A stretch of 32,890 bases of DNA from Treponema sp. (GCA_031267685.1 JAIRYV010000022.1:1-32890), one strand, 5' to 3'; positions 1 through 26,330 are shown, counted from the first letter of the stretch. The notes: generated by a model from the letters alone, not told the origin. A program made the numbers and translations.

Positions 1-119
1 GCTATAGCCTTTGGGTGAAGAGCTATAGCCTTTGGGTGAAGAGCTATAGCCTTTGGGTGAAGAGCTATAGCCTTTGGGTGAAGAGCTATAGCCTTTGGGT
101 GAAGAGCTATAGCCTTTGA
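1..119. repeat. Tandem direct-repeat array 1. The 21-bp unit gctatagcctttgggtgaaga occurs as 5 perfect copies plus a 14-bp partial copy. The unit contains the perfect 8-bp palindrome gctatagc. The array may continue upstream of the window edge.
   Basis: Read directly: identical copies at 1-21, 22-42, 43-63, 64-84 and 85-105, and a truncated copy at 106-119. Confidence 0.95.
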
Positions 120-131
120 TTCCGATACTTG

Positions 132-160
132 TTGACATTGAGAAAAAGATAGCTTACACT
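132..160 (+). promoter_or_regulatory. Putative sigma70-type promoter: TTGACA (132-137), a 17-nt spacer, then TACACT (155-160). It lies immediately 3' of array 1 and about 140 nt upstream of the CDS starting at 302.
   Basis: Consensus -35 hexamer, 17-nt spacing, 4/6 match at -10, and the orientation fits the downstream gene. Confidence 0.45.
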
Positions 161-301: not shown

Positions 302-1537
302 ATGGGTAAGACAAAGCTCCCTAATCAGACACAGCTTAAAGAAATCTATGACGCATACTTAGCTGTGCGGGTTTTAGTTACCAAAGACCTTGAACAGAGT
401 ATAGAAAAAGCGCTCTGTCCCATGCAATCTCACCCTACTGTCAAGGGCAGAGTTAAAGAGTTCGATAGCTTTTATAAAAAGTATCTCGGCCTGCTTAAAA
501 AAGGCGGCTCTGGGCTGCTTATAACCGATTTGGTCGGAATCAGGGTTATCTGCCCCTTCTTTGAGGATATTTTTGTTGTTGAAAATGTCCTCAAACAAAC
601 CTTTGAAGTTGTTGAAGTTGAACGCAAAGGGTCAAACTATTCTTTCAAAGAATTCGGCTATGAATCGACCCACCTGCTGATAAAACTTCCTAGCGAAGTC
701 AGAGAACAACGGGGGGATTGCGGTATTGACGTGGTTGAAGTGCAGATTCGTACAATACTGCAGGATGCCTGGGCTGAGGTTGAGCATGAGCTGGTGTACA
801 AGGCTGAGTTTACCCCTTTTGATGAACCTATGAAGCGTAAAATCGCGGCGCTCAACGCTAATCTCTTTCTTGCTGATACAATCTTTCAGGAAATCAGAGA
901 ACATCAGCGTAAGCTCAATGGCGAACTGGGCAAACGGCGCGGCTCTTTTTTTAAAAAGGTCGAAGAATCGACTGACCGGTTTTTGTTTGTCGAAGAAACC
1001 CTCGCGAACATTCGCGCAGGCGGTGAGCAAAGCGACCTGCTCCCGACCATACATTCCTCTCGTGCATCCATCGACGAGCTTTTGCTCAATGCCCTCTATG
1101 CCCATAACCGGAATCAGTTTGAGCAGGCTATTACGTTTTACACTCGCATCCTTGAGCTGCATCCCGATAACACCGTCTGTTCCCTTATTTATAAACATCG
1201 GGGCATGGCGAACTTTGCCCGCTCTCACTACGAGGATGCTATCACGGACTTTACTCAGGCGCTGGAACTGGACCCCAGCTCCTACAAGGCTCCGTATTAT
1301 CGGGGAATCGTGAAGGCTATATTACAGCGGTTCTCCGAAGCCATTGATGATTTCAGTCTTTCGCTTACCATGAACGCCTATCAGCCTTTCTGCCTGTATC
1401 GCCGCGGTCAAGCCTACTACCATGTTGGAGACCTGCTCCAGGCACTCACGGACTGTGAATCCGCGCTGAAACTAGAACCTAATTGTGAATCTGTACTGAA
1501 ATTCAAGGAGTTCCTGCTTGAGAAGCTCAAGATGTGA
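302..1537 (+). CDS. RelA/SpoT-family (p)ppGpp synthetase domain protein of the small-alarmone-synthetase type, with C-terminal TPR repeats
   Basis: N-terminal half carries synthetase-domain motifs (LITDLVGIRVICPFFEDI, YESTHLLIKLP, VEVQIRTILQDAWAEVEHELVYK). The C-terminal roughly 150 aa has 3-4 TPR-like repeats (AITFYTRILELHPDN, YEDAITDFTQALELDPSS, LLQALTDCESALKLEPN). ATG start. Confidence 0.9.
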   Translation: MGKTKLPNQTQLKEIYDAYLAVRVLVTKDLEQSIEKALCPMQSHPTVKGRVKEFDSFYKKYLGLLKKGGSGLLITDLVGIRVICPFFEDIFVVENVLKQTFEVVEVERKGSNYSFKEFGYESTHLLIKLPSEVREQRGDCGIDVVEVQIRTILQDAWAEVEHELVYKAEFTPFDEPMKRKIAALNANLFLADTIFQEIREHQRKLNGELGKRRGSFFKKVEESTDRFLFVEETLANIRAGGEQSDLLPTIHSSRASIDELLLNALYAHNRNQFEQAITFYTRILELHPDNTVCSLIYKHRGMANFARSHYEDAITDFTQALELDPSSYKAPYYRGIVKAILQRFSEAIDDFSLSLTMNAYQPFCLYRRGQAYYHVGDLLQALTDCESALKLEPNCESVLKFKEFLLEKLKM

Positions 1538-1638
1538 TTGGATACAGACACATCTCACGAACTTGCGCTTGAGTGAGCGCTCGTCATGTTTGAATCAGTC
1601 TAGCAATAAACGCCCTCTCCTTGTATAGTAACGCCATT

Positions 1639-3360
1639 ATGCGACATACAGGAGCAAGGATTTTGATTGAAGCCCTGATTGAACAGGGCGTGGATACGGT
1701 GTTTGGGTATCCGGGCGGCAAGGTGCTGGATATTTATGACGAGCTGTACCAGTGCCGGGACCGGATTCGGCATATTCTGGTGAGCCATGAGCAACATGCG
1801 GCGCATGCTGCCGACGGCTATGCCCGCTCAAGCGGCAAGGTGGGAGTTTGCCTTGCCACCTCTGGCCCGGGCGCGACTAATCTCGTAACCGGCATTGCCA
1901 CAGCCTATATGGACTCAGTACCGTTGGTGGCAATCACGGGCAATGTCGGCAGATCACTCTTAGGCAAGGACAGCTTTCAGGAAGTAGACACCGCTGGCAT
2001 CACCATGCCCATTGTTAAGCATAACTGGATCGTAAAAAGTGTAGAAGACCTGGCTGAAATCGTCCGCGAGGCGTTTATCGTGGCTGTTAGTGGCCGCCCT
2101 GGTCCCGTGCTTATCGACATTCCTGCAGACATCAGCGCGCTTGAGGCGGAAGTGCCTCTGATAGGAACGCTGGCGTCGCTCCCGATTCAGGGTGCGCGGG
2201 CATGGCGCCTGTCCCAGCGGAGTCTGAGGCAGACCTTTACGGAGGCTGACATTGACCGCGCTGTTAGTTTACTGGTCAAGGCAAAACGTCCGGCGATTTA
2301 CGCAGGCGGCGGCGTGATCATTTCTGGCGCATCTGCCAGACTGGTCGCACTTGCCGAGCGGCTGGACGCGCCAGTGAGCCTCAGCCTCATGGGGCTGGGA
2401 GCCATGCCATATGAACATCCGCTCTATACCGGCATGGTTGGTATGCACGGAAGTGTGGCGTCTAACAAGGCTATACAGCAGGCCGACCTCCTGATAGCAA
2501 TCGGCGTGCGTTTCTCAGACCGCGTTACTAGTAGTCCCGACAAGTTTGCGAGTAAGGCCAGGGTTTTGCACTTTGACATTGATCCGGCTGAGATTAACAA
2601 AAACATTCAAGCCGAAGTTTCGGTCATTGGGAATATCCACGATACCCTGAGCCATGTGCTTGAGAAGCTCCCGGCAGACATCAAGACCGAGTGGAATGAC
2701 GATATTAGCACATGGAAAAACGAGGTTCCTCATACGCATCACCGGAAAACCGCGCTCTATCCGCGCTTTATCATTGAAGAAACGGCAAAGGCGCTCAGAA
2801 CACTCGACAATGACGCTATTATTGTTACTGACGTTGGGCAGCATCAGATGTGGACAGCGCAGTTCTATCCCTTTTCAAAGCCGCGTTCCTTCCTTACTTC
2901 CGGCGGACTGGGAACCATGGGCTTTGGGCTTGGCGCAGCCTTGGGCGCAAAGGTCGCCAACCCGTTACGTCCGGTTGTGCTTTTCACTGGCGACGGCTGT
3001 TTCCGCATGAACTGCGCTGAACTGGGAACCTTGAGCGCCTATCACTTGCCCGTGCTGCTGGTGGTGTTCAGTAACGGCGTTCTCGGCATGGTGAGGCAGT
3101 GGCAGACTATTTTTTACGAAGGCCGCTACTCGGAAACCAACCTTGACCGTCCGCCTGATTTCGTGAAACTGGCCTCTGCATATAGCGTTGCAGGCTTCCG
3201 CGCTGACAGCGAAGCCAGCTTCATGGCCGCGCTTGAGGCTGCCATGCGGGAACTTGCCACAGGCCGTGCCGCTGTCATTGACGCCCATATCGACAAGGAC
3301 GAGCGCGTATTGCCAATGGTTCCCGGTGGCAAACCCATTGACGAGCAGATTCTGTCGTAG
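1639..3360 (+). CDS. Acetolactate synthase large-subunit-type thiamine-pyrophosphate enzyme. No small-subunit gene is adjacent, so it may be a catabolic ALS or a related TPP enzyme.
   Basis: 574 aa. The N-terminus reads GARILIEALIEQGVDTVFGYPGG. A TPP-binding motif (GDGCFRMN) is present. The whole length is AHAS-like. The ORF track begins at a TTG at 1621, but the ATG at 1639 fits AHAS N-termini better. Confidence 0.85.
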   Translation: MRHTGARILIEALIEQGVDTVFGYPGGKVLDIYDELYQCRDRIRHILVSHEQHAAHAADGYARSSGKVGVCLATSGPGATNLVTGIATAYMDSVPLVAITGNVGRSLLGKDSFQEVDTAGITMPIVKHNWIVKSVEDLAEIVREAFIVAVSGRPGPVLIDIPADISALEAEVPLIGTLASLPIQGARAWRLSQRSLRQTFTEADIDRAVSLLVKAKRPAIYAGGGVIISGASARLVALAERLDAPVSLSLMGLGAMPYEHPLYTGMVGMHGSVASNKAIQQADLLIAIGVRFSDRVTSSPDKFASKARVLHFDIDPAEINKNIQAEVSVIGNIHDTLSHVLEKLPADIKTEWNDDISTWKNEVPHTHHRKTALYPRFIIEETAKALRTLDNDAIIVTDVGQHQMWTAQFYPFSKPRSFLTSGGLGTMGFGLGAALGAKVANPLRPVVLFTGDGCFRMNCAELGTLSAYHLPVLLVVFSNGVLGMVRQWQTIFYEGRYSETNLDRPPDFVKLASAYSVAGFRADSEASFMAALEAAMRELATGRAAVIDAHIDKDERVLPMVPGGKPIDEQILS

Positions 3361-3363
3361 CTT

Positions 3364-3984
3364 TCACCTTTCCGTGAGTGCGCGCCAGGGGTTTTGCCTG
3401 AAGCGGATGAGCAGATACAGCCAGCCAAAGGCAAAACCCGCGAGGTGTGTTAAATGAGCTACGCTGCGCTGAAGCCCGAAGAATGAAGACGCCAGCTCAA
3501 TAATGGTGAAGACTAGCACCATAACTGGCGCACGCATGGGCAGAATCCCCCAGATGGCGATCACCGCATTGGGAAAAAACGTGGCGTAGGCGAGCTGTAC
3601 TGCGAAGATAGCGCCAGACGCGCCCAGAAGCCAGACCGTGTACGAGCCAGTGAGACAGTACACCGCAAGGGAAAAAGCGCCGGCAAGAAAGCCCGTAATC
3701 AGGTAGTAGCAGAGAAACTCAACGCTCCCCGTATACCGTTCAACCTGAGTCCCGAACATGAACAGGGCAAGCATATTAAGCAAGAGGTGGCTGATATTGC
3801 CGTGAGCAAACATATAGGTAAACACTTGCCATACCCATTTATTGCCGATTACCGCCAGAGGGTTCATGGCAAGGTAGACGCTAGTCATTGGGGCAAGCTG
3901 TTGTAGAGCAAAAACTACGACATTGATGCCAATGAGGATCAAGGCTACGTTGCCGGATTGGTAAAAACGATTAACTATTCTCAT
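3364..3984 (-). CDS. Rhomboid-family intramembrane serine protease
   Basis: 206 aa and polytopic. It has the GASGAIF (GxSG) catalytic-serine motif and a downstream AHLTHLAGFAFG histidine helix. It is convergent with the upstream gene, with only 3 nt between stop codons. Confidence 0.85.
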   Translation of the reverse strand: MRIVNRFYQSGNVALILIGINVVVFALQQLAPMTSVYLAMNPLAVIGNKWVWQVFTYMFAHGNISHLLLNMLALFMFGTQVERYTGSVEFLCYYLITGFLAGAFSLAVYCLTGSYTVWLLGASGAIFAVQLAYATFFPNAVIAIWGILPMRAPVMVLVFTIIELASSFFGLQRSVAHLTHLAGFAFGWLYLLIRFRQNPWRALTER

Positions 3985-5882: not shown

Positions 5883-5928
5883 CACGACTGCTTATAACAA
5901 GAGCCGCCTTCTGGCGGCTCTTCGTGTC
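5881..5928. terminator. Bipartite hairpin between the convergent nifU and 5928..8888 genes. Inner stem agagccgcc / ggcggctct (5900-5921, loop ttct). Outer stem gacacga / tcgtgtc.
   Basis: Perfect 9-bp GC-rich inner stem flanked by a perfect 7-bp outer stem, positioned between two convergent stop codons. T-tracts are weak (ttcgtgtc on plus; ttgttataag on minus). Confidence 0.45.
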
Positions 5929-8888
5929 TAAAGCCTTTCGGTCAGGTCATTCGCGTTAAGCATGACCGGCTGACCACCAGCACTTTGTATCAGGATAATA
6001 TCGCCCTGAAAACTGGCCGTCGCATAAGGGTGTATCTGGGTCGCGGATTTCGCGGCAAGCGGGATAACGCCATCGGCAATCGCAGCAGTATCAAAGCGGG
6101 CAAGATAAAGCGCACTGCCTGAACTGACAATGGTGTATATGCTAGCCTCCCGAACCCAGAGCGGCGCGTCAGCATACAGAGAATCAACACCATTGTCGCT
6201 GACCTGTGCGCCAACACCCATGTTTTCCTGATCAATTTGAATAAGCTGGACAAGATTGCCCGGCAATGTCAGTGTCGCAAAAACCTCCTGCTCTTCTCCC
6301 TCACCAATGGCTATTAAGGAACGCGCATTGATGGTGGTGAGGTTTGAAATATTGGTCCTTGCGCCTGTCGCAAGGTTAAGCTCTATGAGAACACCTAAGG
6401 GCGAATCAGACTGCGTCAACTCAATCATAATAACTTTTGTTCCACCCTCATCTTCACTAGCAGTAAAGCCACCCGCCACTGCCTGTCGCGCTGCCTCTTC
6501 CTCAGCCACCTGTTGCGCTGCCTCCGCTTCGGCTGCAAGCCGCGTAGCTTCTTCCGCCGCCTGCCGTGCTATCTCAGCCTGTCGTACAGCCTCTTCCGCC
6601 GCTTGTCGTGCAAGCTCCGTCTGTTGCGCTGCCGCGTCTGCGCTTTGACCCGGGACATTCGCCGCTGCCGCTTGCGCTGTATCAGCCTGCCGTGCCGCTT
6701 CTTCCGCCGCGTCTTGTGCTATCTGCGCCTGCTGCGCCACCGCTTCATCCTGTGGCACGATGTTTTCCGCTGCCTGCTGCGCTATCTCGGCCTGTCGCGC
6801 CGCTTCTTCCGCCGCTTGCCGTGCTATCTCAGCTTGTCGCGCTGCCTCTCCCGCTGCCTGCTGCGCTATCTCGGCCTGTCGTGCCGCTTCTTCCGCCGCC
6901 TGCTGCGCTATCTCCACCTGACGCGCTGCCTCTTCCTCAGCCGCCTGTTGCGCTGCTTCCGCTTCGGCTGCAAGCCGCGTAGCTTCTTCCGCCGCTTGCC
7001 GTGCTATCTCAGCCTGACGTGCCGCCTCTTCAGCCGCTTGCCGCGCTATCTCAGCCTGCTGCGCCACTGCTTCATTCTCAGGTGCCGCTTCATCTGCCGC
7101 CTGCCGTGCTATCTCCGCCTGTCGCGCCGCCTCTTCCGCTGCTTGCCGCGCTATCTCAGCCTGCTGCGCCACTGCTTCATTCTCAGGTGCCGCTTCTTCT
7201 GCCGCCTGCCGTGCTATCTCGGCCTGACGCGCCGCCTCTTCAGCCGCTTGTTGCGCTATCTCAGCCTGTTGCGTTGCCTCTTCATCCGCCGCCTGCTGAG
7301 CCACTGCCTCAGCCTGTTGCGTTGCTGCTGCCTCAGTCGCCTGCTGAGCTGCTGCCTCAGCCTGTTGTGTTGCCGCTTCATCCGCCGCCTGCTGAGCCGC
7401 TGCCTCAGCCTGCTGCGCTGCCGCTTCATCCGCCGCCTGCTGCGCTGCCGCTGCCTCAGCCGCCTGCTGCGCTATCTCAGCTTGCCGTGCGGCTGCCGCT
7501 TCGGCAGCAAGCCGCGAGGCTTCCTCCGCCGCTTGCCGTGCTATCTCAGCCTGTCGCACAGCCTCTTCAGCCGCTTGCCGCACAAGCTCTGTCTGCTGCG
7601 CTGCCGCATCTGCCCCCTGACGCGGGATACTCGCCGCCGCCACTTGCGCTGCATCAGCTTGACGCGCCGCTTCGTCAGCCGCACTTTGCGCTATCTCAGC
7701 CTGTCGCGCCGCTGCTTCATTCTGCGGCATAACGTCTTCCACTGCCTGTTGCGCTCTCTCAGCCTGACGCGCCGCCTCTTCAGCCGCACCTTGCGCTATC
7801 CCAGCCTGTCGCGCCGCTTCGTCAGCCGCCTGACGCGCTATCTCGGCCTGCCGCGCCGCCTCTTCAGCCGCCTGACGCGCAGCTTCCACTTGACGCGCTG
7901 ACTCGGCCCGTCGCTCAGCTTCCGCAGCAATGCCGCCATTCTGATCAATAGCAATATCCTCACGATCGCTTTGAGCATCAAGCATCTTCCGCTCTGCCAT
8001 ACGCTCCGCCTCATCGGCCAGCCTACGCTGTTCTTCCAACGCCCTTTCCCGATCAGCAAGCTCATTCTCAATACGCCGCGCCTCTTCCGGCGACGCCTGT
8101 TGCACCCGCCGACGCTCCGCCGCAATCCTGGCTTCCTCCACCGCAATAGCTTCACGTAAATCCGCAGCCCGCGCCTCAGCCTCGTCCGCCTCACGCTCCT
8201 TTAACTCAACCATCTCTTTCCGTACGTCAAGCCCCTGATTCGGATCACGCCGCAACTCCTCAAGCACGCCCTCATCGCTCACCGCCGATGTGTCTATGGC
8301 ACTCAATGACCCAGGACTCGCGTTACCAAGCGGGATTACAATGAGCGTCCGCCCTGGCCATTCATCAAAACGTACAGAAAGACCAACACGATCAGCGCTC
8401 AAGTCTCCCAGAACCGCTTGTTTATAACGAGAACTGAAAAAGTCCCAGTTACCCCGATAAAATGCGTTATAAATCGTAATATATTGGGCAAGTAACCGCG
8501 CATCTGCCGCCGAGTAGTTATAGGCCCCTTCAAGATAGCCCTGTATGATGAGCCTCAGATTCCGTATGTGGTCTACTCCCACGCCAGACCCTAAGCCAAA
8601 AATGTCTGCATCTATCCGCTCTCCTTCTGGAGCTGTAACCGAATGAATCACAAAGTACCGATTCATAGCGCCTGAACGAGTCGCCCCACGCCGAACCGCA
8701 AGACCCTGTTCATAACCAATGTTCCGAATCTGCGCAACCGTATCAATCCGCGTAACCGGCCCCGTATAATTATAGAACTCAATCGACCCTTGCCCCTGCT
8801 GTAACTCATTGGTATTCACCTGCGCACATAACAATGACGCAAGCAACCCCATCAGTGCAGCGCAAACATAGCTAATCCGTTTATTCAT
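5928..8888 (-). CDS. Large secreted or surface protein (986 aa). It has an N-terminal signal peptide (possibly a lipoprotein), a globular N-domain of about 300 aa, a central Ala/Gln/Glu/Arg-rich coiled-coil-like tandem-repeat region of about 450 aa, and a C-terminal domain of about 170 aa.
   Basis: MNKRISYVCAALMGLLASLLCAQ signal sequence. AAAGAGG RBS upstream. Central repeats of the AARQAEIA(R/Q)QAAEEA type are encoded by near-identical DNA repeats. Confidence 0.85.
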   Translation of the reverse strand: MNKRISYVCAALMGLLASLLCAQVNTNELQQGQGSIEFYNYTGPVTRIDTVAQIRNIGYEQGLAVRRGATRSGAMNRYFVIHSVTAPEGERIDADIFGLGSGVGVDHIRNLRLIIQGYLEGAYNYSAADARLLAQYITIYNAFYRGNWDFFSSRYKQAVLGDLSADRVGLSVRFDEWPGRTLIVIPLGNASPGSLSAIDTSAVSDEGVLEELRRDPNQGLDVRKEMVELKEREADEAEARAADLREAIAVEEARIAAERRRVQQASPEEARRIENELADRERALEEQRRLADEAERMAERKMLDAQSDREDIAIDQNGGIAAEAERRAESARQVEAARQAAEEAARQAEIARQAADEAARQAGIAQGAAEEAARQAERAQQAVEDVMPQNEAAARQAEIAQSAADEAARQADAAQVAAASIPRQGADAAAQQTELVRQAAEEAVRQAEIARQAAEEASRLAAEAAAARQAEIAQQAAEAAAAQQAADEAAAQQAEAAAQQAADEAATQQAEAAAQQATEAAATQQAEAVAQQAADEEATQQAEIAQQAAEEAARQAEIARQAAEEAAPENEAVAQQAEIARQAAEEAARQAEIARQAADEAAPENEAVAQQAEIARQAAEEAARQAEIARQAAEEATRLAAEAEAAQQAAEEEAARQVEIAQQAAEEAARQAEIAQQAAGEAARQAEIARQAAEEAARQAEIAQQAAENIVPQDEAVAQQAQIAQDAAEEAARQADTAQAAAANVPGQSADAAAQQTELARQAAEEAVRQAEIARQAAEEATRLAAEAEAAQQVAEEEAARQAVAGGFTASEDEGGTKVIMIELTQSDSPLGVLIELNLATGARTNISNLTTINARSLIAIGEGEEQEVFATLTLPGNLVQLIQIDQENMGVGAQVSDNGVDSLYADAPLWVREASIYTIVSSGSALYLARFDTAAIADGVIPLAAKSATQIHPYATASFQGDIILIQSAGGQPVMLNANDLTERL
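6480..7910. repeat. Intragenic near-perfect tandem DNA repeats with periods of about 48 and 108 bp, encoding the coiled-coil repeat region of the 986-aa protein
   Basis: For example, 7024-7115 and 7133-7224 are near-identical, as are 6486-6560 and 6925-7000. The ORF track's plus-strand Arg/Cys/Leu-rich and Pro-rich ORFs here are frame artefacts of the repeats. Confidence 0.85.
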
Positions 8889-13712: not shown

Positions 13713-14252
13713 TTAGCTTTCAAAGCGTACAACGGCTACTGTGTGAGAATCAATCACCCGTGTAATGAGGGTTTTTTCAAACGAGGGTATGAGTTCTGCG
13801 GTGTCAGACACTGCGTCGGTCTGATGCTTGACACCGTTGAGGACAAAGGAGATTCGTCCTTTTCCCTGAGTTGGGATACGGAGATACACCTCAGCCTCAC
13901 AGCCGACCGCGTCTTTCAAGGAGAACCGTGCGCCGCTGCTCCGTAGTTGCATTGCTCCATAAAAGACGAGCGCGGTACTCAGCATGGCGACAAGCCCTGC
14001 ACCTGCGCCTGCGAGTAGGCTCAACGGCAGGTTAAGGCCGAACTGTGCCTGTGCAGCGAGTCCGCCCCAGCCGAACATGGCAGTAAAGCCGGTGAGTGAA
14101 TTGAGCGACAGCAGCCTGAACGCCCCGTTTCCTGCCTCAGCTATGTCTGTATCGCCGCTGTCATCATCGCCGCCTGCGCCTGCAATGAAGAGAATCACGC
14201 GCAAAAGGAAAAACACCGAGCCAAACACTGCTGCTCCCCAGAAACAAAGCAT
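13713..14252 (-). CDS. NfeD-like (YqiJ-type) membrane protein, the usual partner of flotillin
   Basis: 179 aa. Several TM helices are followed by a C-terminal beta-rich soluble domain (GKGRISFVLNGVKHQTD). It sits immediately upstream of the flotillin gene, in the conserved gene order. Confidence 0.75.
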   Translation of the reverse strand: MLCFWGAAVFGSVFFLLRVILFIAGAGGDDDSGDTDIAEAGNGAFRLLSLNSLTGFTAMFGWGGLAAQAQFGLNLPLSLLAGAGAGLVAMLSTALVFYGAMQLRSSGARFSLKDAVGCEAEVYLRIPTQGKGRISFVLNGVKHQTDAVSDTAELIPSFEKTLITRVIDSHTVAVVRFES

Positions 14253-14431
14253 AAAACGCCCCCTTATACCTACTTGACCTATTCTCTGTATTCATACAAT
14301 ATAGCCTTATGTTATGGTTATCGCAAGTGTTTTACTATTGAATGATATCATACGCTCATCCATGTCGTGCCAACTGGTCGTTCAAGGTTATACACAGCGA
14401 TTATCTTAAAAAAGCTGAGAAGAGTTATTAT

Positions 14432-15277
14432 ATGTATTGGAAGTATCCAGAAACTGATTTAGAGCGTCATTTAAGCGCATTGCTGAACAGACGCATCCAG
14501 AGCTGTACGCATAAGTCCGCAGGCCCGGAGTTGGCGCGGCTTCACAGTGTGGAAGACTTTGTCGCCGAGCTTGAGCATGGCGGTGTTCAGCTTGAGGGGT
14601 TTACGACAACAAGGCGCGAGGAATGCTCGAACAGACTTCGGCCGAAGTCTGTTCACACCATCTACACCATAACCTGTGATGCGCTTCCTGCGTCTGAGTG
14701 TTTTGTGTGCATTGAGTGTGGGAGCGTTTCTGCAACGAAGTTGTCTTCTGAGACTGGCGAGTGTTACAGTTCTCCCGTGCAATTTTATGCGCGTCTATAT
14801 GACGCAATGATGTATTATGGTCAAACGATATATGATAATGATTTTGGTTTTGTGTTTAGGTTTCTGGAACGCTTTGAGGAGATTGCCTCTGAAGTGCCTC
14901 TTATCCGCGCAAAGTTCCAGAAGCAGCGGAAAATTAAAGAGCTTACGCAGGACAGTATTAAGGCGTGGTTTGTTCAGATTTGTGAGGAATTGGGTTGTCC
15001 CTATTTTATAGAAGTAAAGAGAGTGCAGAGCAAACTGTATGTGCGGCTTAATGAGAAAACACAGCTTGAGATAGTAGTTCCGCACGCTACCTTTCAGAAA
15101 GTGATGCCTGAACTGAGCGGTATTATTCAGACATATACTGCTCTGTTTGAAAGCACTAAGGCGCGTGTGCTTATGAGCAACGTTGCGCCTGGTAATTACT
15201 GGCGGGAACCCGGAAAAAAGCAGGATGAGGGCAAGTATGAAGATGACGATGATGAAGATGACGATGGTGAGGTCTGA
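14432..15277 (+). CDS. Hypothetical protein (281 aa from the ATG at 14432) with a Cys cluster (CFVCIEC...GEC) and a poly-acidic C-terminal tail (YEDDDDEDDDGEV). It is the first gene of an operon with the AAA+ and VWA genes.
   Basis: Long ORF followed tightly by the next gene (24-nt gap). No recognisable family. The 14342 start given in the track has no RBS, so the first in-frame ATG at 14432 (MYWKYPETDLERHL) is preferred. Confidence 0.6.
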   Translation: MYWKYPETDLERHLSALLNRRIQSCTHKSAGPELARLHSVEDFVAELEHGGVQLEGFTTTRREECSNRLRPKSVHTIYTITCDALPASECFVCIECGSVSATKLSSETGECYSSPVQFYARLYDAMMYYGQTIYDNDFGFVFRFLERFEEIASEVPLIRAKFQKQRKIKELTQDSIKAWFVQICEELGCPYFIEVKRVQSKLYVRLNEKTQLEIVVPHATFQKVMPELSGIIQTYTALFESTKARVLMSNVAPGNYWREPGKKQDEGKYEDDDDEDDDGEV

Positions 15278-15301: not shown

Positions 15302-16381
15302 ATGGAGCGGCTTATGGGAGTAAATGTTAATGTCACTGAGTTATTACACGTTATAGAACTCACGCCATGTCATCAGAATATTATGCTGGTGGGAAAGCAT
15401 GGCATTGGCAAGTCGCGGATTATCGCGGACTTTTTTGAGAAACAGGGAAAGCCGGTGATAACGCTTTTTCTGGGACAGATGAGCGATCCTGGTGATATTA
15501 TTGGGCTTCCAGCGCTTGACGCTACAGTGGGAAAAACCGATTTTCGCCCGCCCTGGTGGTTTCCGCTTGATGGTAATCCTATTGTGTTGTTTCTCGACGA
15601 ATTGAACCGTGCTCGGCCTGAGATTCTGCAATGCGTGATGGACCTGACGCTTAACAAAATGCTTGCCGGGAAAAAACTGCCGGCGGGAAGCCAGATTATT
15701 TCCGCAGTGAATGAGGGTGAGGAATATCAGCTTACTGATCTTGATCCAGCGCTGGTGTCGCGTTTTAATGTGTATTATTTTGTTCCCTCGCCGGCGGAGT
15801 GGCTTTTGTGGGCAGAGCGAAATAATATCGACAAACGGGTTGTCGCCTTTATCGAGAAAAACAGTGACGTTCTTGACAGTGAGGCTTCGATTGACGCTGG
15901 TCTGAGCAAAACGCCTGATCGCCGCGCATGGGAGCGTGTCTCGCAGATTATCGCGCCGCTGGATCACATAGACCGGATTGTCGAGAAAATTATCGCTGGT
16001 GTGGTGGGGAATAGTGCGGCGCTCAAGTTCGCGCTATTTACGCGGGAAAACACGGGCCTGAACCCACTGTTGATTTTAACCCATTTTGAACAGAACAAGC
16101 AAAGGCTTGAAAACCTTGCTATTCACGAACTCACGCCTCTCAACGAGGGCTGTTTCCGCATGATAGAGCTTGAGCGGAATCAGAAAAAAGTGAAGGGATA
16201 TGTGAGTAACCTTGAGCACTATATCAAGTGGCTTATTGAAAACAAGCGGAATGAAGTGATTGCGCACTGGGCAACGCTGTACCAGTCTTCGGCCTATCCG
16301 CAGGCAAAGGTCGCTATACTCAGCAACTCGCCCTCTATTTTCCAGAGTATTGTGGGATTTATCAAGGATATTAAAATATAA
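15302..16381 (+). CDS. MoxR-like AAA+ ATPase (AAA_5-type)
   Basis: Walker A GKHGIGKS, Walker B IVLFLDELNRA, and arginine-finger region DPALVSRF. An alternative start at 15314 (MGVNVNV) has a better GGAG RBS. Confidence 0.85.
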   Translation: MERLMGVNVNVTELLHVIELTPCHQNIMLVGKHGIGKSRIIADFFEKQGKPVITLFLGQMSDPGDIIGLPALDATVGKTDFRPPWWFPLDGNPIVLFLDELNRARPEILQCVMDLTLNKMLAGKKLPAGSQIISAVNEGEEYQLTDLDPALVSRFNVYYFVPSPAEWLLWAERNNIDKRVVAFIEKNSDVLDSEASIDAGLSKTPDRRAWERVSQIIAPLDHIDRIVEKIIAGVVGNSAALKFALFTRENTGLNPLLILTHFEQNKQRLENLAIHELTPLNEGCFRMIELERNQKKVKGYVSNLEHYIKWLIENKRNEVIAHWATLYQSSAYPQAKVAILSNSPSIFQSIVGFIKDIKI

Positions 16382-16415
16382 CGGCAGCTTTGCTGCTAGT
16401 GCGAATTGGTAAAGC

Positions 16416-17768
16416 ATGGGGTTAAATATGGCTAAAAAGGCGCGGAAAACTATTTCAGCAGAGGAGCGTATACGGCTCGTGAGCGATGCGTGGTATATCA
16501 GGGAACCCGCGTTGTTTATGGTATTTACGTCGCACATATTCACCGCAAATCCATTGATTCGGGGCATACGAACTGGGCATGGCCACGTTGAGTATAACCC
16601 GGCGTATCTGGCCGCGTTAAGCGCGAAGGAAGCTGAGGAAGCACTGAAAGCCGAAATGATCCGCATACTCTTGCGCCACCCTTATCGCTGGCCACCGCGC
16701 AGCGCGGAAGTTTCATACATAGCAAGCAATATCACCCTGAACGAATATTACCGTTTCAGTTCTTTACCCCATCGCGTTTCTGATTTCTGGGATGATCCTG
16801 AATATACAAAGCGGAACTTCGAGTTTTATTACCGTGAATATCTTGAACTGGCGCAGCAACAGGCGGGAACCATGGGCGATGAGCAGGGCAATGGCAAAAA
16901 TCAGCGTGCGCAAAACAATAATAGCCAGGCGCCCGGCAGCGCGGGAAACAGTGGCGGCGAAAACAGTGATAGCGGCGACGGCGCGGGAAACAGTGGCGGT
17001 AACAGTAGTGCGAAAAACAGTGGCGACGGTGCGGGAAATAACGGCGACAGTACGGAAAACAACGGCAACGAGACACGCGCCCATAACGCGGAAAACGCGG
17101 CGCTTTGGACGAACGACGATTTTATGGACATGAAAGTGCGTGAAGTCATTGAATTTACCCAGCAGAATATGCTGTCATGGGGAACTATACCTGGGGAACT
17201 TGCGCAAAGCATACTCGCCACACTCAAGCCAATACTCGACTACCGCAAAGTTCTGAGTGGCTTTCGCGCTACTGTGCTGTCAAGCAACATGACGCTCACC
17301 CGCTTTCGTCCCAGCCGCCGCTATGGTTTTGTCTACATGGGTAAAAAAAGCCGCTTCACTACGCGCCTCTTAATCGGCGTTGATGTGAGTAGTTCCATCA
17401 GCGATAAAGAAATAAACCTGTTTTATTCAACGGTCAACCATTTTTTCAAATATGGCATAGAAGAAACCGACGTTCTGCAATTTGACGCTGACTTACAGGG
17501 TGAGCCGCTCCTCATAAAAAAAGCGCGAAAGGAAATTCTGGTAAAAGGTCGGGGCGGAACCTGTTTTCAGCCCATCATTGATTATTTTGCGGCAAACCGG
17601 AATACCTACAACGGCCTTATCATCTTCACTGATGGTTACGCGCACCAGCCCACTATATCGCTGCGGGACACGTACAAAGTTCTTTGGATATGCAGCAATA
17701 AACAAAGCTACGAAGCGCATCAGAACTGGATGAGTAAGCAAGGGCGCTGTTGCTGGATACAGGCGTGA
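16416..17768 (+). CDS. VWA-domain protein of the COG3864/DUF2201 type: an N-terminal peptidase-like region plus a C-terminal VWA domain, separated by a Gly/Asn/Ser-rich low-complexity insert
   Basis: MIDAS-like motif LLIGVDVSSSIS and later IIFTDGYAHQP. The N-region (GHGHVEYNPAYLAAL...MIRILLRHPYRW) resembles the DUF2201_N family, but no HExxH is evident. The gene is 34 nt downstream of the AAA+ gene. Confidence 0.8.
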   Translation: MGLNMAKKARKTISAEERIRLVSDAWYIREPALFMVFTSHIFTANPLIRGIRTGHGHVEYNPAYLAALSAKEAEEALKAEMIRILLRHPYRWPPRSAEVSYIASNITLNEYYRFSSLPHRVSDFWDDPEYTKRNFEFYYREYLELAQQQAGTMGDEQGNGKNQRAQNNNSQAPGSAGNSGGENSDSGDGAGNSGGNSSAKNSGDGAGNNGDSTENNGNETRAHNAENAALWTNDDFMDMKVREVIEFTQQNMLSWGTIPGELAQSILATLKPILDYRKVLSGFRATVLSSNMTLTRFRPSRRYGFVYMGKKSRFTTRLLIGVDVSSSISDKEINLFYSTVNHFFKYGIEETDVLQFDADLQGEPLLIKKARKEILVKGRGGTCFQPIIDYFAANRNTYNGLIIFTDGYAHQPTISLRDTYKVLWICSNKQSYEAHQNWMSKQGRCCWIQA

Positions 17769-17858: not shown

Positions 17859-19241
17859 ATGAAAAGAATCGTGATTATGACGCTGGTTATGACCCTTGCC
17901 GCGTCAGTCAGCTTTGCGGCAGGCAGCAGGCAGCAAGCCCGGCCATCCGACGGCCCTCAGCCTGTTACCCTCAAGTGGGTGGGTTTTGGGTTCGAGGCGA
18001 ATAGGACTGCGGCGAACCTTATCGAGCGTTACAAGCAGGTAGCTCCGAATGTTACCATCGACTATCAGGAACTGGGTTCAGTCGCTGATATCGATGGCCT
18101 TGCGCGGCTGGACACGCTCATCGCGGGCGGGCAGCAGATTGACCTGGTGTATCTGACCACCAGCGACCTCATGCGGCGGGCAGTCAATGGCGCGGCGCTG
18201 CCACTCAACGACGCTATCGCGGCTAACGGCGACAACTTCGAGGCTGACTATGGCAAGCTCGGAGCAAACGCCACTGCCTTTCAGGGCAATATCTATGGCG
18301 TACCCCGCGCTGGTAACACCTTCAAAGTCTTCTATAATAAAACCCTTGCCGATGCTCATGGCATTAGTGTCCCAGACCAGATGACAATGGCAGAGTTTCT
18401 TGCGGTAACCAAGCAATTCGCGGCAGTACCCGGCCTGAAGTATCCAGCCAGTATTCAGGCGCTCTGGGTACAGATCACCTACGGCGCGGCGTCGATTGCT
18501 GGTTGGCAGATGGTGAAGAAGGACGCCTCCGGGCGCATAGTAACAAACTTCGACGACCAACGCTTCCGCGACAGTCTCCAGTTCTACCACGACTTCGCCC
18601 GCGTGGAACACCTCGCCCCTGACGCCGCGACCTATGCTGCCGAAAGCCTGAATCGCCGTCGTGCGCTGGCCCTGGGCGAAACCGGCCTCATCCTCGACGG
18701 CCCCTTTGCACTGATCTGGTTACAGGGCTTCCAGTTCAATGACCCAGGCGAAGGCAAGCTGGACTTTGAGATCGGCGTCTCAGAACTACCCGTCTTAACC
18801 GAAGCTGACAAGACAAAGTCCTCCTACAACGAGCTTGCCGGCGCGTTCTATGCCCCCAGCACTTGCAAGAATCTGCTTGAGGCATATCGCTTCATGCGCT
18901 TTGTCTGTAACGACAACTTCGACATCAACGGCACGTATATGCCGGTGTACTCTGGCGCAAACCTCGAAACTGCGGTCAGCACTTTCACTCGTTTCACCGA
19001 TTCCAAGGGCAACCTGCACACCGACATCTACCCGGTAGAGTCCACCATCAAAGCTGTTACGGTTCCGAATGATTCGTTCCTCGGCGTGTTTCCAGTAGAC
19101 CCATCGCTCATCAACTATGTGCCGTCACTGGACGCCCTGCTTGAGGAGCAGCTCACGCTCTATCTCAACGATGAAATGACGCTTGACGCCTTCATCGCGG
19201 ATATCACAAAGCGTGGCCAAGAGATTTTAGATAACCTGTAG
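17859..19241 (+). CDS. ABC transporter periplasmic solute-binding protein (family 1, carbohydrate-type)
   Basis: 460 aa. Signal peptide MKRIVIMTLVMTLAASVSFAAGS. Typical sugar-binding-protein length. Followed by two permease genes. Confidence 0.85.
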   Translation: MKRIVIMTLVMTLAASVSFAAGSRQQARPSDGPQPVTLKWVGFGFEANRTAANLIERYKQVAPNVTIDYQELGSVADIDGLARLDTLIAGGQQIDLVYLTTSDLMRRAVNGAALPLNDAIAANGDNFEADYGKLGANATAFQGNIYGVPRAGNTFKVFYNKTLADAHGISVPDQMTMAEFLAVTKQFAAVPGLKYPASIQALWVQITYGAASIAGWQMVKKDASGRIVTNFDDQRFRDSLQFYHDFARVEHLAPDAATYAAESLNRRRALALGETGLILDGPFALIWLQGFQFNDPGEGKLDFEIGVSELPVLTEADKTKSSYNELAGAFYAPSTCKNLLEAYRFMRFVCNDNFDINGTYMPVYSGANLETAVSTFTRFTDSKGNLHTDIYPVESTIKAVTVPNDSFLGVFPVDPSLINYVPSLDALLEEQLTLYLNDEMTLDAFIADITKRGQEILDNL

Positions 19242-22996: not shown

Positions 22997-24274
22997 TCAT
23001 TGGGACGGTCTGATTGTCGTCGCTGAATCAGCGAGGGGCTCATGGCTGCTAATCAGCACTTTGTCGATTCGGTTGCCATCCATACTCAGAATCATGAACT
23101 GGTAACCGTTGTGGGAAAAAGTCTCGCCGACGTGAGGGATTTTACCGGCAAGGTTGAGGATAAAACCAGCCAACGTGTGGTATTCCTGATGTTCGCCAAC
23201 AAGCGTTTCCAGACAGAGTACGTCAGCAACTTCATCAATATTGGCGCCGCCTTCCACGAGTAAGGAACCGTCGTCCTGCTGAAGTATCTCGGCCTGGTCT
23301 TTGGCCTCAGTCGAGAATTCGCCGACAAGCTCTGCCATCAAGTCCTGTATGGAAAGAATACCGACAAAGCCGCTGTATTCGTCCATAACCATAAGCAGGG
23401 TTTCCTGCCTGAACGCTTCAAATGTCTTGAGCGCAGATATGGTTTCTGGTATGAAGTAGGGCTTTTTCATAATGCTCCGCAGCCCAGGCCAGACGCCATG
23501 AAGCAGAGCGCGAAGAATGTCCTCGACCGAAACTACGCCACAAATCTCGTCAAGCGTCCCGTTCGCTACAGGAAAAGAACGCTGCGCCTTGACGTTAAGA
23601 ACGAGATTTCGTGCAGTTTCCGCATCAGCGTTAATGTCTAGCCACTCAATCTCTGAACGATGAGTCATAAACGTTCCCGCTTCCCGGTCGCCCAGGTATA
23701 AAACGCCCTCAACCATAGTTCGCTCTTTGCTTTCAACAACGCCGGAACGTTCCCCTTCGACAAGAGCGATATGGAACTCATCCGCAGTCATGTTGCCCTC
23801 AGCGCGACCAGCTTTGGTACGGGAAAGACTGTGGGCAATGAGTATAAGCGGCAGGCCGAATAAGGTCAGGAGGGTGATGATGAACTGCTCCGGCATGTTA
23901 CGGGCAAGGAGGCGAGGAAGAATTTCGCCCAGAATAAGCGTGATCAGCGAAACCCCGAGGCTTACCAGCATGATCACCAGCACGTTATGACTGACTACAG
24001 TGGGCGCTGCTACCATGACCACGCCGATACCAGTCACTACGCCAGCCAGTATGCCTAGAAAAGTGCCAACATTTCTCAGCGGGAAACGTTCCGGCGACTC
24101 AAGTAGCTTGAGAGCCGCCGAGAGCGCCTTACGTTGTCTGGTGTCAGAGACGCTTTCAATTCTGGAACGGAGTGCGGTCTTCCGCGTTGAAAACAAAACG
24201 CTTTCCAGCAGCGTGCATAAGATTTTTAAGATGATAAGAAGAATAAACAAAAAGGACGGTAAGGGGTCTTCCAT
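22997..24274 (-). CDS. CNNM/CorC/HlyC-family transporter-associated protein (DUF21 TM domain, CBS pair, CorC_HlyC C-domain)
   Basis: 425 aa. N-terminal 4-TM DUF21 segment, two CBS-like segments, and a C-terminal transporter-associated domain. Confidence 0.9.
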   Translation of the reverse strand: MEDPLPSFLFILLIILKILCTLLESVLFSTRKTALRSRIESVSDTRQRKALSAALKLLESPERFPLRNVGTFLGILAGVVTGIGVVMVAAPTVVSHNVLVIMLVSLGVSLITLILGEILPRLLARNMPEQFIITLLTLFGLPLILIAHSLSRTKAGRAEGNMTADEFHIALVEGERSGVVESKERTMVEGVLYLGDREAGTFMTHRSEIEWLDINADAETARNLVLNVKAQRSFPVANGTLDEICGVVSVEDILRALLHGVWPGLRSIMKKPYFIPETISALKTFEAFRQETLLMVMDEYSGFVGILSIQDLMAELVGEFSTEAKDQAEILQQDDGSLLVEGGANIDEVADVLCLETLVGEHQEYHTLAGFILNLAGKIPHVGETFSHNGYQFMILSMDGNRIDKVLISSHEPLADSATTIRPSQ

Positions 24275-25502: not shown

Positions 25503-26330
25503 TTGAGGCTTAGGTATGTTTTGTGCGTTCTTAACAGTATCACGATTGGTGTATCAGTCGTCGCGCTTTTGCTCTGGCGCTCGAGTTGGCTTTTTGTGGT
25601 GGTCTTTGTTGTCTTGACGTTGGCCATTGACGCTTATGTTCTGGCGAACCGGTGTCTGTTTCGGCTGCTGGAACGGGAAGACTGGCCGGCGCTCTGTGTC
25701 TGGCTTGAACAGCGTGTGTTTGTGCAAAGGCGCTATACTGCTTGTTTGACGCGGATGCTTGCCAACACCTACCTGGCGCTTGCTGATTCTGTGGCAGTGC
25801 GGGAGCTTGAGCAGAAAACTGCGCTAGTGAATCCTGGTCTTATTGAAGAAAATGCGCTGGTTTTTGGTGTGGCGCGGATTCTCAGCAAGGATACAGCGGG
25901 CGTGGCGTCTTTCTTTTCGGCAAGGCTTGACGCTGCGGTTCGTGTACCCAGTATGGTGCGTAAACGTGCGTTCAGTGTCCGTAGTTGGCTTCGCTGGTAC
26001 TATGGTTTTTCCCTCTTGCTTGATCGGCAGTATCCCCGTGCTTCGGAGCAGTTTATCATACTGATAAACGAAATTTCTCCTTCTCCGCTCATCAATGGCC
26101 TATCAGCCTTCCTACTTGTTGATACTTTTAGTAAGGCGCTGGTCGAGCGTAAGGCTGAGTTCCTTACTGTTGCCGAGAATGGACGCAGGCAAACGCGGAA
26201 ACGCCTGCCTGGTATACGGGACTGGAACAAGGCGGTTTCTGAGGCGTGCAGCGAGGTTCACGTGGTGATACTGTTGCCGCGTCTGCAGGAGGCCGGCGAA
26301 TGGCTATACACTGACTCCGGCGTTCGTTAG
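25503..26330 (+). CDS. Hypothetical protein with two N-terminal TM helices
   Basis: 275-aa ORF that fills the gap between the HD-GYP and GH genes. It has a TTG start in the track and no in-frame ATG nearby. No recognisable domain. Confidence 0.45.
   Translation: MRLRYVLCVLNSITIGVSVVALLLWRSSWLFVVVFVVLTLAIDAYVLANRCLFRLLEREDWPALCVWLEQRVFVQRRYTACLTRMLANTYLALADSVAVRELEQKTALVNPGLIEENALVFGVARILSKDTAGVASFFSARLDAAVRVPSMVRKRAFSVRSWLRWYYGFSLLLDRQYPRASEQFIILINEISPSPLINGLSAFLLVDTFSKALVERKAEFLTVAENGRRQTRKRLPGIRDWNKAVSEACSEVHVVILLPRLQEAGEWLYTDSGVR

What the first reader, a model, noticed from the sequence alone, without database searches (positions are those of the whole stretch)
302..1537. A small alarmone synthetase domain fused to C-terminal TPR repeats
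Residues of about 40-170 are an unmistakable RelA/SpoT-type nucleotidyltransferase (synthetase) domain with no hydrolase domain. Residues of about 260-411 form 3-4 TPR repeats. Stand-alone small alarmone synthetases are normally about 200-250 aa. A TPR partner-binding module suggests (p)ppGpp or pppApp synthesis gated by protein-protein interaction. Some single-domain members of this fold are toxins in toxin-antitoxin or anti-phage contexts, so the product should be determined rather than assumed.
Basis: partly seen in the sequence, partly recalled or inferred. Interest (0 to 1): 0.55.

Follow-up and report, generated by a model that had tools for sequence, protein, structure and literature searches.

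The report
Known TPR-braked spirochaete alarmone synthetase

Summary
Window 302-1537 (+) is an intact 411-aa ORF. It has a RelA/SpoT synthetase domain (aa 49-168, Pfam E=5.5e-21), no hydrolase domain, a variable linker (aa 226-256) and four TPR motifs (aa 257-395).

The architecture is not new. It defines the published DsRel ("SAS-TPR") family of RelA/SpoT homologues. One member, Treponema denticola Tde-SAS (TDE1711, 410 aa), has been characterised biochemically (PMC10434055). It is a tetramer that makes ppGpp in preference to pppGpp and pGpp, and only traces of (pp)pApp. Alarmones do not stimulate it allosterically, and it is not toxic in E. coli. Its TPR domain acts as a brake: deleting it raises catalytic efficiency for ppGpp about 18-fold.

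The window protein is 43% identical to Tde-SAS over 389 aa and 58-59% identical to the T. primitia, T. azotonutricium and T. caldarium members used in the published tree. It nests inside DsRel (83/100 bootstraps) and keeps every catalytic residue checked. It lacks the RelQ allosteric motifs and the RelP zinc histidines, as reported for Tde-SAS.

Its neighbours are housekeeping genes. No antitoxin-like partner or defence gene is present, and toxSAS families score 35 bits or less.

The TPR ligand is still unknown. An incidental finding is that flaA sits immediately upstream across treponemes.

The parts
302..1537 (+). Complete gene for a 411-aa DsRel-family (SAS-TPR) small alarmone synthetase, stop codon included.
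   Evidence: ORF listing and translation. The identical protein is on record from this 32,890-nt contig, named 'tetratricopeptide repeat protein [Treponema sp.]' by NCBI and 'putative GTP pyrophosphokinase' by JGI. BLASTP to DsRel references gives 256-482 bits.
446..805 (+). RelA/SpoT nucleotidyltransferase (synthetase) core, aa 49-168. It includes Asp76 (nt 527-529) and Glu146 (nt 737-739).
   Evidence: Pfam PF04607, E=5.5e-21. In the alignment, D76 lines up with B. subtilis RelQ D72 and RelP D87, and E146 with RelQ E139 and RelP E154. R50, K52, R81, Y120, H124, Q148 and R150 are also conserved. These positions are at least 95% conserved across 93 family members.
806..976 (+). Post-core helical region, aa 169-225. 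It is the most conserved stretch of the family and is probably an oligomerisation or regulatory helix.
   Evidence: The commonest residue has a mean frequency of 0.80, and 24 of 57 columns are at least 90% conserved. AF2 predicts one long helix (172-228) with pLDDT below 50 in a monomer. Tde-SAS and its 1-246 truncation are tetramers. The role as an interface is inferred.
977..1069 (+). Variable interdomain linker, aa 226-256.
   Evidence: It is the least conserved region (0.24, with no conserved columns) and varies in length. pLDDT is 34-47. It corresponds to the protease-sensitive linker at about residues 230-250 of Tde-SAS.
1070..1486 (+). Four tetratricopeptide repeats: TPR1 aa 257-290, TPR2 294-327, TPR3 328-361, TPR4 362-395.
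   Evidence: Pfam TPR_1, TPR_2 and related models. The repeats map one-to-one onto Tde-SAS TPR1-4 (255-288, 292-325, 326-359, 360-393). pLDDT is 83-95. Foldseek gives TM 0.90-0.95 to four-repeat consensus TPR proteins. This half matches only DsRel TPR domains among the SAS reference proteins.
1487..1534 (+). C-terminal capping helix after TPR4, aa 396-411.
   Evidence: AF2 helix 396-410. The paper describes an extended helix C-terminal to TPR4 in Tde-SAS.
132..160 (+). Possible sigma-70-type promoter (TTGACA-17-TACACT) about 140 nt upstream of the start codon. This is weak evidence only.
   Evidence: Consensus scan, 10 of 12 matches. Only 1 site was found in the region against 2.4 expected from shuffles, so it is not significant on its own.

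Best explanation
The gene encodes a DsRel-family ('SAS-TPR') small alarmone synthetase of a termite-gut-type Treponema, orthologous to T. denticola Tde-SAS (TDE1711). Shown here: it has an intact RelA/SpoT synthetase domain with all catalytic and substrate-binding residues checked, no hydrolase domain, a flexible linker and four C-terminal TPR motifs. It nests phylogenetically within DsRel. Inferred by homology to the characterised orthologue: the N-terminal domain transfers pyrophosphate from ATP to the 3'-OH of GDP, and less well to GTP or GMP, giving ppGpp in preference to pppGpp and pGpp, with only minor (pp)pApp. The enzyme is probably a homotetramer and is not allosterically activated by its products. 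The TPR domain holds the catalytic domain in a low-activity state (higher Km, lower kcat). Speculative, both in the literature and here: binding of an unidentified ligand to the TPR groove releases this brake under stress, and the alarmone is removed by a separately encoded hydrolase that is not in this window.
For: Domain architecture by profile and fold. BLASTP against family-labelled references from the published tree puts all 17 DsRel references at 256-482 bits over the full length. Tde-SAS is 43.4% identical over 389 aa (E=2e-108), and T. azotonutricium, T. caldarium and T. primitia are 58-59% identical. The best non-DsRel family reaches only 86 bits. A bootstrapped NJ tree on 159 catalytic-domain columns gives a DsRel-plus-window clade in 83 of 100 replicates, and a subclade with T. 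primitia, T. azotonutricium, T. caldarium and Treponema sp. J25 in 93 of 100. Catalytic Asp76 and Glu146 and seven further substrate-binding residues are conserved. The RelQ allosteric motifs (KxKxKxxR, EFVT, LAMNFWAT) and the S. aureus RelP His73/His74 zinc site are absent, as reported for Tde-SAS. The four TPRs are in register with those of Tde-SAS. Both halves are under comparable constraint across 93 members (core 0.69, TPRs 0.68-0.71, linker 0.24), so the fusion is an old, selected unit. More than 120 protein clusters of about 385-442 aa share the architecture, and at least 588 species-level genomes encode a relative. The biochemistry of the orthologue is taken from PMC10434055.
Against: No experiment exists on this protein or on any termite-clade member. 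Identity to the characterised enzyme is only 43% (49% in the catalytic domain, 41% in the TPR domain), so substrate preference, oligomeric state and the strength of the brake could differ. The AF2 model does not resolve how the TPR domain contacts the catalytic domain (pTM 0.42, linker and post-core helix below pLDDT 50), so the structural basis of inhibition is unknown. The tree is a simple distance tree built on reference sequences that the supplement truncates at 400 residues. The all-Treponema clade is supported in only 52 of 100 replicates.
Confidence: 0.9

Rival explanations
1. It is a toxic small alarmone synthetase (toxSAS) of a toxin-antitoxin or anti-phage defence system. It would make pppApp or pyrophosphorylate tRNA, with the TPR domain acting as the sensor, by analogy with the C-terminal sensor domain of fused CapRel.
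For: A weak PADLOC hit to the candidate defence model PDC-S33 (E=3.5e-11, 41 bits, covering only the synthetase core at aa 13-158). Tde-SAS makes small amounts of (pp)pApp in vitro.
Against: toxSAS references score 35 bits or less (PhRel 35, CapRel 35 and 30, FaRel 26, PhRel2 23), against 256-482 bits for DsRel, and they fall on distant branches. No conserved small ORF lies upstream or downstream in 80 related loci. The recurrent flanking families are all upstream and are flaA, GerMN and an amidase, or shadow ORFs within them. The window's 58-aa ORF at 116-292 lies in DNA that does not align even with the 90%-identical relatives. Window neighbours are housekeeping genes. The gene occurs as a conserved chromosomal orthologue in at least 588 species-level genomes rather than patchily. 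[quoted passage not shown]
Confidence: 0.02
2. It is a genuine DsRel enzyme, but the termite-gut and free-living subclade has diverged in product. For example it might prefer GTP or GMP, or make substantial (p)ppApp. It might also differ in regulation, with the TPR domain no longer inhibitory.
For: Identity to Tde-SAS is only 43%. The window protein belongs to a well-supported subclade distinct from the oral and host-associated treponeme clade (93 of 100). Termite treponemes such as T. primitia also carry RelP, and the paper states that most treponemes other than T. denticola, T. pallidum, T. putidum and T. pedis have a long RSH. The division of labour may therefore differ.
Against: All substrate-binding residues aligned with RelP and RelQ are identical to those of Tde-SAS. 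The TPR domain is as conserved as the catalytic core, with motifs in register. Deleting the TPR domain did not change substrate preference in Tde-SAS.
Confidence: 0.07
3. It is a catalytically dead scaffold: a TPR adaptor that keeps a degenerate synthetase fold.
For: NCBI's annotation pipeline names the protein only 'tetratricopeptide repeat protein'. The NCBIfam equivalog scores are far below their cutoffs (YjbM 66 bits against 320).
Against: D76, E146, R50, K52, R81, Y120, H124, Q148 and R150 are all present and at least 95% conserved family-wide. The low NCBIfam score simply reflects that the model is specific to RelQ. The Pfam domain passes its cutoff nearly three-fold.
Confidence: 0.01

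Closest known systems
Tde-SAS (TDE1711, WP_002679418) of Treponema denticola, the only characterised member of the DsRel / SAS-TPR family (Wang, Tang, Xie and Watt 2023, PMC10434055)
   Same: Length is 410 aa against 411 aa. The order is the same: synthetase domain, protease-sensitive linker, four TPRs in register, then a capping helix. Identity is 43% over 389 aa (49% in the catalytic domain, 41% in the TPR domain). The catalytic and substrate-binding residues are identical. Both lack the RelQ allosteric motifs and the RelP zinc histidines. Both have flaA immediately upstream (TDE1712 and TDE1711)..
   Different: The window protein belongs to the termite-gut and free-living subclade (with T. 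primitia, T. azotonutricium and T. caldarium), not the oral clade. The linker sequence is unrelated. In this lineage the flaA-SAS intergenic region is expanded and carries tandem repeats. No biochemistry exists for this subclade.
T. primitia ZAS-2 TREPR_2457, T. azotonutricium ZAS-9 Treaz_1200 and T. caldarium Spica_1616, DsRel members listed in the published tree
   Same: They are 58-59% identical over the full length. The TPR domain is 64-69% identical. They share the subclade (93 of 100 bootstraps)..
   Different: They come from different species, and none has been studied experimentally.
RelP (SAS2) and RelQ (SAS1) of Firmicutes (PDB 6EWZ, 6FGK, 5DEC, 5DED)
   Same: They share the synthetase fold and catalytic residues. 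Foldseek TM is 0.63-0.69 on the target, and sequence E-values are about 1e-15. Tde-SAS is reported to form a homotetramer like RelP and RelQ.
   Different: RelP and RelQ are single-domain proteins of about 210-230 aa with no TPR domain. RelQ is allosterically activated by pppGpp through motifs that are absent here. RelP has a zinc-binding His pair that is absent here. They form separate clades.
Long RSH enzymes (Rel, RelA, SpoT)
   Same: The logic is analogous: a C-terminal regulatory region restrains the synthetase until a macromolecular partner relieves the restraint. This rests on established knowledge of long RSHs and is an analogy only.
   Different: Long RSHs carry a hydrolase or pseudo-hydrolase domain and TGS, helical, ZFD and RRM regulatory domains, and they sense the ribosome. 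None of these is present here. The TIGR00691 score is 22 bits against a cutoff of 499.
toxSAS families (FaRel, PhRel, PhRel2, CapRel)
   Same: Only the distant RelA/SpoT synthetase fold is shared.
   Different: Scores are 35 bits or less. There is no adjacent antitoxin, no mobile or defence context, and the phylogenetic positions are distant.

Membership tests
DsRel / SAS-TPR small alarmone synthetases | N-terminal RelA/SpoT synthetase domain with intact synthesis motifs and no hydrolase domain | tested here: met
   PF04607 at aa 49-168, E=5.5e-21. No HD-type family appears in the listed hits. D76, E146, R50, K52, R81, Y120, H124, Q148 and R150 are conserved relative to RelP, RelQ and Tde-SAS.
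DsRel / SAS-TPR small alarmone synthetases | C-terminal domain of four TPR motifs following a linker. [quoted passage not shown] | tested here: met
   The TPRs lie at aa 257-290, 294-327, 328-361 and 362-395, in register with Tde-SAS TPR1-4. The TPR half alone hits only DsRel TPR domains among the SAS references (90-214 bits).
DsRel / SAS-TPR small alarmone synthetases | Phylogenetic placement of the catalytic domain inside the DsRel clade | tested here: met
   NJ tree with 46 family-labelled references and 159 columns. The DsRel-plus-window split is recovered in 83 of 100 bootstraps, and the window protein is sister to T. primitia. The bit-score gap is 256 or more for DsRel against 86 or less for other families. 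Caveat: this is a distance method with a reduced reference set.
DsRel / SAS-TPR small alarmone synthetases | Biochemical behaviour of the characterised member: preference for ppGpp, homotetramer, no product activation, inhibition by the TPR domain | not testable with these tools
   Known only for Tde-SAS. AF2 could not resolve the interdomain arrangement.
RelQ (SAS1) | Allosteric pppGpp-binding motifs KxKxKxxR, EFVT and LAMNFWAT | tested here: not met
   The aligned window segments read EQSIEKAL, PTVKG and ILQDAWAE. The NCBIfam YjbM equivalog scores 66 bits against a cutoff of 320. RelQ forms a separate clade.
RelP (SAS2) | Single-domain protein of about 210-230 aa with a zinc-binding His-His pair at the dimer interface (S. 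aureus His73/His74), and membership of the RelP clade | tested here: not met
   The aligned residues are Pro45 and Thr46. The protein is 411 aa with a TPR domain. RelP forms a separate clade.
toxSAS toxin-antitoxin or defence systems (FaRel, PhRel, PhRel2, CapRel) | Membership of a toxSAS subfamily, plus a conserved adjacent antitoxin gene or a fused antitoxin domain | tested here: not met
   Scores to toxSAS references are 35 bits or less and the branches are distant. No recurrent small partner ORF was found in 80 loci, and no downstream family recurs. The neighbours are housekeeping genes.
PADLOC candidate defence gene PDC-S33 | Full-length match to the 349-position model | tested here: not met
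   Only profile positions 34-175 match, at 41 bits (E=3.5e-11). This is the shared synthetase core.
Long RSH (Rel, RelA, SpoT) | Hydrolase or pseudo-hydrolase domain plus TGS and other C-terminal regulatory domains | tested here: not met
   TIGR00691 scores 22 bits against a cutoff of 499. No HD_4 or TGS hits appear in the listed results.

The most novel reading that the evidence does not exclude
The near-universal placement of the SAS-TPR gene directly downstream of flaA, the flagellar sheath gene and an 'orphan' flagellar gene within an envelope gene cluster, may reflect function. It holds in 76 of 80 related loci here and as TDE1712/TDE1711 in T. denticola. On this reading the TPR brake would be released by a component of periplasmic-flagellum or envelope assembly, such as unassembled FlaA precursor or its chaperone. 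That would link motility or envelope status to alarmone signalling in treponemes. The published speculation instead proposes transcription or translation machinery as the partner. My evidence shows only conserved adjacency on the same strand. It shows neither co-transcription nor interaction.
Probability: 0.08. Interest if true: 0.5.

Novelty: already known. Interest (0 to 1): 0.12.

Why it matters
It matters little as a discovery. The residual value is twofold. First, public annotation of this protein and many relatives as merely 'tetratricopeptide repeat protein' under-describes them, and they can be confidently re-labelled as DsRel-family (p)ppGpp synthetases. Second, the open question for the family is what binds the TPR domain and releases the brake. 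The strong conservation of the TPR surface, and the conserved flaA adjacency noticed here, could guide pull-down experiments.

Tried and rejected
1. toxSAS or defence reading. I tested it with PADLOC, family-labelled BLASTP, a tree and a search for recurrent flanking ORFs. I rejected it.

2. Operon link to the downstream acetolactate-synthase-type TPP enzyme, which lies 84 nt away on the same strand and might have suggested a link between branched-chain amino acids and the stringent response. tblastn of six window neighbours against 80 related loci showed this arrangement only in the two relatives at about 90% identity, L001 and L002. I rejected it as lineage-specific.

3. The 58-aa ORF at 116-292 as a candidate partner or antitoxin. 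The surrounding DNA is unalignable with L001 and L002, and no such family recurs. I rejected it.

4. AF2, to see how the TPR domain docks on the active site. The individual domains are confident, but pTM is 0.42 and the linker and post-core helix are below pLDDT 50, so no conclusion can be drawn.

5. The genome-contig scan did not return T. denticola among its best 80 loci. I took the Tde-SAS sequence from the paper's supplement instead. Those reference sequences are truncated at 400 residues.

6. The first tree script timed out. I reran it with a vectorised distance calculation.

7. One Pfam call failed on a bad coordinate reference and was repeated.

8. I searched the window for an SAH, a RelP or a long RSH. 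None was found. The HD_5 protein at 24307-25386 is not an RSH-type hydrolase.

9. A literature search for a newer SAS-TPR structure or partner found only the 2023 paper in the held library.

Full report
**Observation**

Window 302-1537 (+) is an uninterrupted ORF from ATG to a stop codon, encoding 411 aa. Pfam places a RelA_SpoT synthetase domain at aa 49-168 (E=5.5e-21, 75 bits against a gathering score of 27). It also places a stack of overlapping TPR models over aa 254-407, led by TPR_1 (E=1e-24) and TPR_2 (E=6e-21). No hydrolase (HD) family appears in the listed Pfam or NCBIfam hits.

Against PDB sequences the protein splits in two. Residues 46-218 match the RelP and RelQ small alarmone synthetases at E about 1e-15 to 1e-13 (6FGK, 6EWZ, 5DED). 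Residues 259-403 match natural and designed TPR proteins.

**Provenance and spread**

The identical protein is on record from a 32,890-nt contig of a Treponema sp. metagenome-assembled genome. NCBI calls it only 'tetratricopeptide repeat protein', and JGI calls it 'putative GTP pyrophosphokinase'. The 120 best protein clusters are 58-89% identical (excluding the query's own record). They are about 385-442 aa long, carry the same Pfam combination, and come from Treponema, Spirochaetaceae, Breznakiella and T. primitia.

A scan of one genome per species found at least 588 stretches encoding a relative. The best 80 (L001-L080, 51-90% identity) are almost all termite-gut or free-living treponemes. 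This is a widespread chromosomal orthologue, not a sporadic fusion.

**It is a known family**

A full-text search found Wang, Tang, Xie and Watt 2023 (PMC10434055). The paper characterises T. denticola Tde-SAS (TDE1711, 410 aa). [quoted passage not shown]

Tde-SAS has these reported properties:
- It is a homotetramer.
- It prefers GDP, making ppGpp in preference to pppGpp and pGpp.
- It makes (pp)pApp tens to hundreds of times more slowly.
- It is neither stimulated nor inhibited by (p)ppGpp.
- It rescues an E. coli relA spoT strain without toxicity.

Deleting the TPR domain (Tde-SAS 1-246) lowers Km(GDP) about five-fold and raises catalytic efficiency for ppGpp about 18-fold, so the TPR domain acts as a 'brake'. 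The authors speculate that a protein partner from the transcription or translation machinery binds the TPR domain and derepresses synthesis.

**Membership tests**

The paper's supplement lists the family-labelled sequences behind its SAS tree. I used 46 of them. They comprise 17 DsRel sequences from treponemes, other spirochaetes and Deltaproteobacteria/Caldithrix. The rest are RelP, RelQ, ActRel1-3, MixRel, MixRel5, AaRel, FabRel, BdRel, gRel, PsRel, RelV, FpRel2 and the toxSAS families FaRel, CapRel, PhRel and PhRel2.

BLASTP gave the following:
- All 17 DsRel references score 256-482 bits over essentially the full length.
- T. azotonutricium, T. caldarium and T. primitia are 58-59% identical.
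- Tde-SAS is 43.4% identical over 389 aa, E=2e-108.
- The best non-DsRel family (AaRel) reaches 86 bits, RelP 78 bits, and toxSAS families 35 bits or less.
- The TPR half alone matches only DsRel TPR domains (90-214 bits).

A neighbour-joining tree on 159 catalytic-domain columns recovers DsRel plus the window protein in 83 of 100 bootstraps. A subclade with T. primitia, T. azotonutricium, T. caldarium and Treponema sp. J25 is recovered in 93 of 100. The all-Treponema clade is weaker, at 52 of 100.

In the alignment, Asp76 corresponds to B. subtilis RelQ D72 and RelP D87, and Glu146 to RelQ E139 and RelP E154. R50, K52, R81, Y120, H124, Q148 and R150 are conserved. The RelQ allosteric motifs and the S. 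aureus RelP His73/His74 zinc site are absent, the same pattern the paper reports for Tde-SAS. The four TPRs map in register to aa 257-290, 294-327, 328-361 and 362-395, and the protease-sensitive linker maps to about aa 226-252. Every sequence-level defining feature of DsRel is met. The biochemical features cannot be tested here.

**Constraint and structure**

I compared 93 family members: the window protein, 75 near-full-length homologues from the loci, and the 17 DsRel references. The mean frequency of the commonest residue is:

| Region | Mean frequency |
|---|---|
| Synthetase core | 0.69 |
| TPR motifs | 0.68-0.71 |
| Post-core helices, aa 169-225 | 0.80 |
| Linker | 0.24 |

The TPR domain is thus as constrained as the catalytic domain. 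That fits a conserved interface, whether intramolecular or with a conserved partner.

AF2 with a 16-sequence alignment models each domain confidently. The core blocks reach pLDDT 80-92 and the TPR domain 83-95. The model leaves residues 172-228 as one long low-confidence helix and the linker disordered, with pTM 0.42. It cannot show how the brake works. The highly conserved but unsupported helix is most simply read as an oligomer interface, which is an inference.

Foldseek matches the N half to RelQ and RelP crystal structures (target TM 0.63-0.69) and the C half to four-repeat consensus TPR proteins (TM 0.90-0.95, 1.1-1.7 A). No solved chain covers both halves.

**Genomic context**

Downstream in the window lie the following genes:
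- an acetolactate-synthase-type TPP enzyme (1621-3360, +)
- a rhomboid protease (3364-3984, -)
- NifS and NifU
- a P83/100-family protein
- Dxr
- transporters, hydrolases and other ordinary genes

There is no SAH, RelP or long RSH in the window. The downstream arrangement is shared only with the two relatives at about 90% identity, L001 and L002.

Upstream, by contrast, is strongly conserved. In 76 of 80 loci a same-strand gene of about 352 aa ends a median of about 120 nt before the SAS-TPR start, preceded by genes of about 169, 366 and 536 aa. In L001 these are FlaA (PF04620, E=5e-67), a GerMN-domain protein, an Amidase_3 and a cytidylyltransferase. A second example, from L069, is also FlaA.

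In T. denticola, FlaA is TDE1712. It is described as an 'orphan' flagellar gene in a co-directional cluster running TDE1716 to TDE1706 (PMC9481697), so it sits next to TDE1711, which is Tde-SAS. The 2023 paper does not mention this linkage.

No recurrent small ORF lies between flaA and the SAS gene or after it. The small recurrent 'families' are shadow ORFs inside flaA and its neighbours. None of this resembles a toxin-antitoxin or defence locus.

**The upstream 301 nt of the window**

Positions 1-118 are a perfect 21-nt tandem repeat (5.6 copies) running off the contig end. L001 carries a different tandem repeat in its 548-nt flaA-SAS spacer, and the spacers do not align. A TTGACA-17-TACACT match at 132-160 could be the gene's own promoter, but one match is no more than chance expectation.

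**Verdict**

The gene is an orthologue within the described DsRel / SAS-TPR family. It most likely makes mainly ppGpp under autoinhibition by its TPR domain. The ligand that releases the brake is unknown for the whole family.

Novelty: already known. Interest is low. The only mildly new item is the conserved flaA adjacency, which I record as a lead and not as a finding.

Noticed in passing
L001:4311-5453 and 6001-7239; 76 of L001-L080. The window itself stops 301 nt upstream of the gene.: flaA, the flagellar filament outer-layer protein (PF04620), lies immediately upstream of the SAS-TPR gene on the same strand in 76 of 80 related loci, with a median gap of about 120 nt. It is preceded by GerMN-domain, Amidase_3 and cytidylyltransferase genes. 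In T. denticola the same adjacency exists: FlaA is TDE1712 and Tde-SAS is TDE1711, within the cluster TDE1716 to TDE1706. The paper that characterised Tde-SAS does not mention it.
   Followed up: partly
window 1-118: A perfect 21-nt tandem repeat (GCTATAGCCTTTGGGTGAAGA, 5.6 copies, 100% matches) runs off the 5' end of the contig and probably caused the assembly break. The 90%-identical relative L001 has a different tandem repeat at the equivalent place in a 548-nt flaA-SAS spacer.
   Followed up: partly
window 5928-8888 (-): A 986-aa protein has an N-terminal Borrelia_P83/100 domain (PF05262, 254 bits). This is followed by several hundred residues of Ala/Gln/Glu/Arg-rich imperfect repeats of the type AARQAEIAQQAAEE. 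The repeats raise local G+C to 65% and give a strongly negative GC skew.
   Followed up: no
window 15302-17768 (+): An adjacent pair of genes: an AAA_5 (MoxR/dynein-type) ATPase and a protein with DUF2201_N (putative metallopeptidase) and DUF2201 (VWA-like) domains. The 311-aa ORF upstream at 14342-15277 has no Pfam hit.
   Followed up: no
window 24307-25386 (-): An HD_5/HD-domain protein (HD-GYP-like). It is not an RSH-type alarmone hydrolase. It sits next to a CNNM/CBS/CorC transporter gene at 22997-24274.
   Followed up: no
window 806-976 (aa 169-225 of the SAS-TPR protein): The helical stretch after the synthetase core is the most conserved part of the whole family (mean 0.80). AF2 nevertheless models it as a lone 57-residue helix with pLDDT below 50. 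It is probably a tetramer or regulatory interface that a monomer prediction cannot place.
   Followed up: partly
window 1621-3360 (+): An acetolactate-synthase-type TPP enzyme starts 84 nt downstream of the SAS-TPR gene on the same strand. This linkage is seen only in the two closest relatives (L001 and L002), so it is lineage-specific and not a conserved operon.
   Followed up: yes
window 13713-14252 (-), 17859-19241 (+), 25503-26330 (+): Three sizeable ORFs (179, 460 and 275 aa) have no Pfam match at E<=1e-5. The 460-aa ORF precedes two ABC-type permease (BPD_transp_1) genes, so it may be a divergent solute-binding protein.
   Followed up: no
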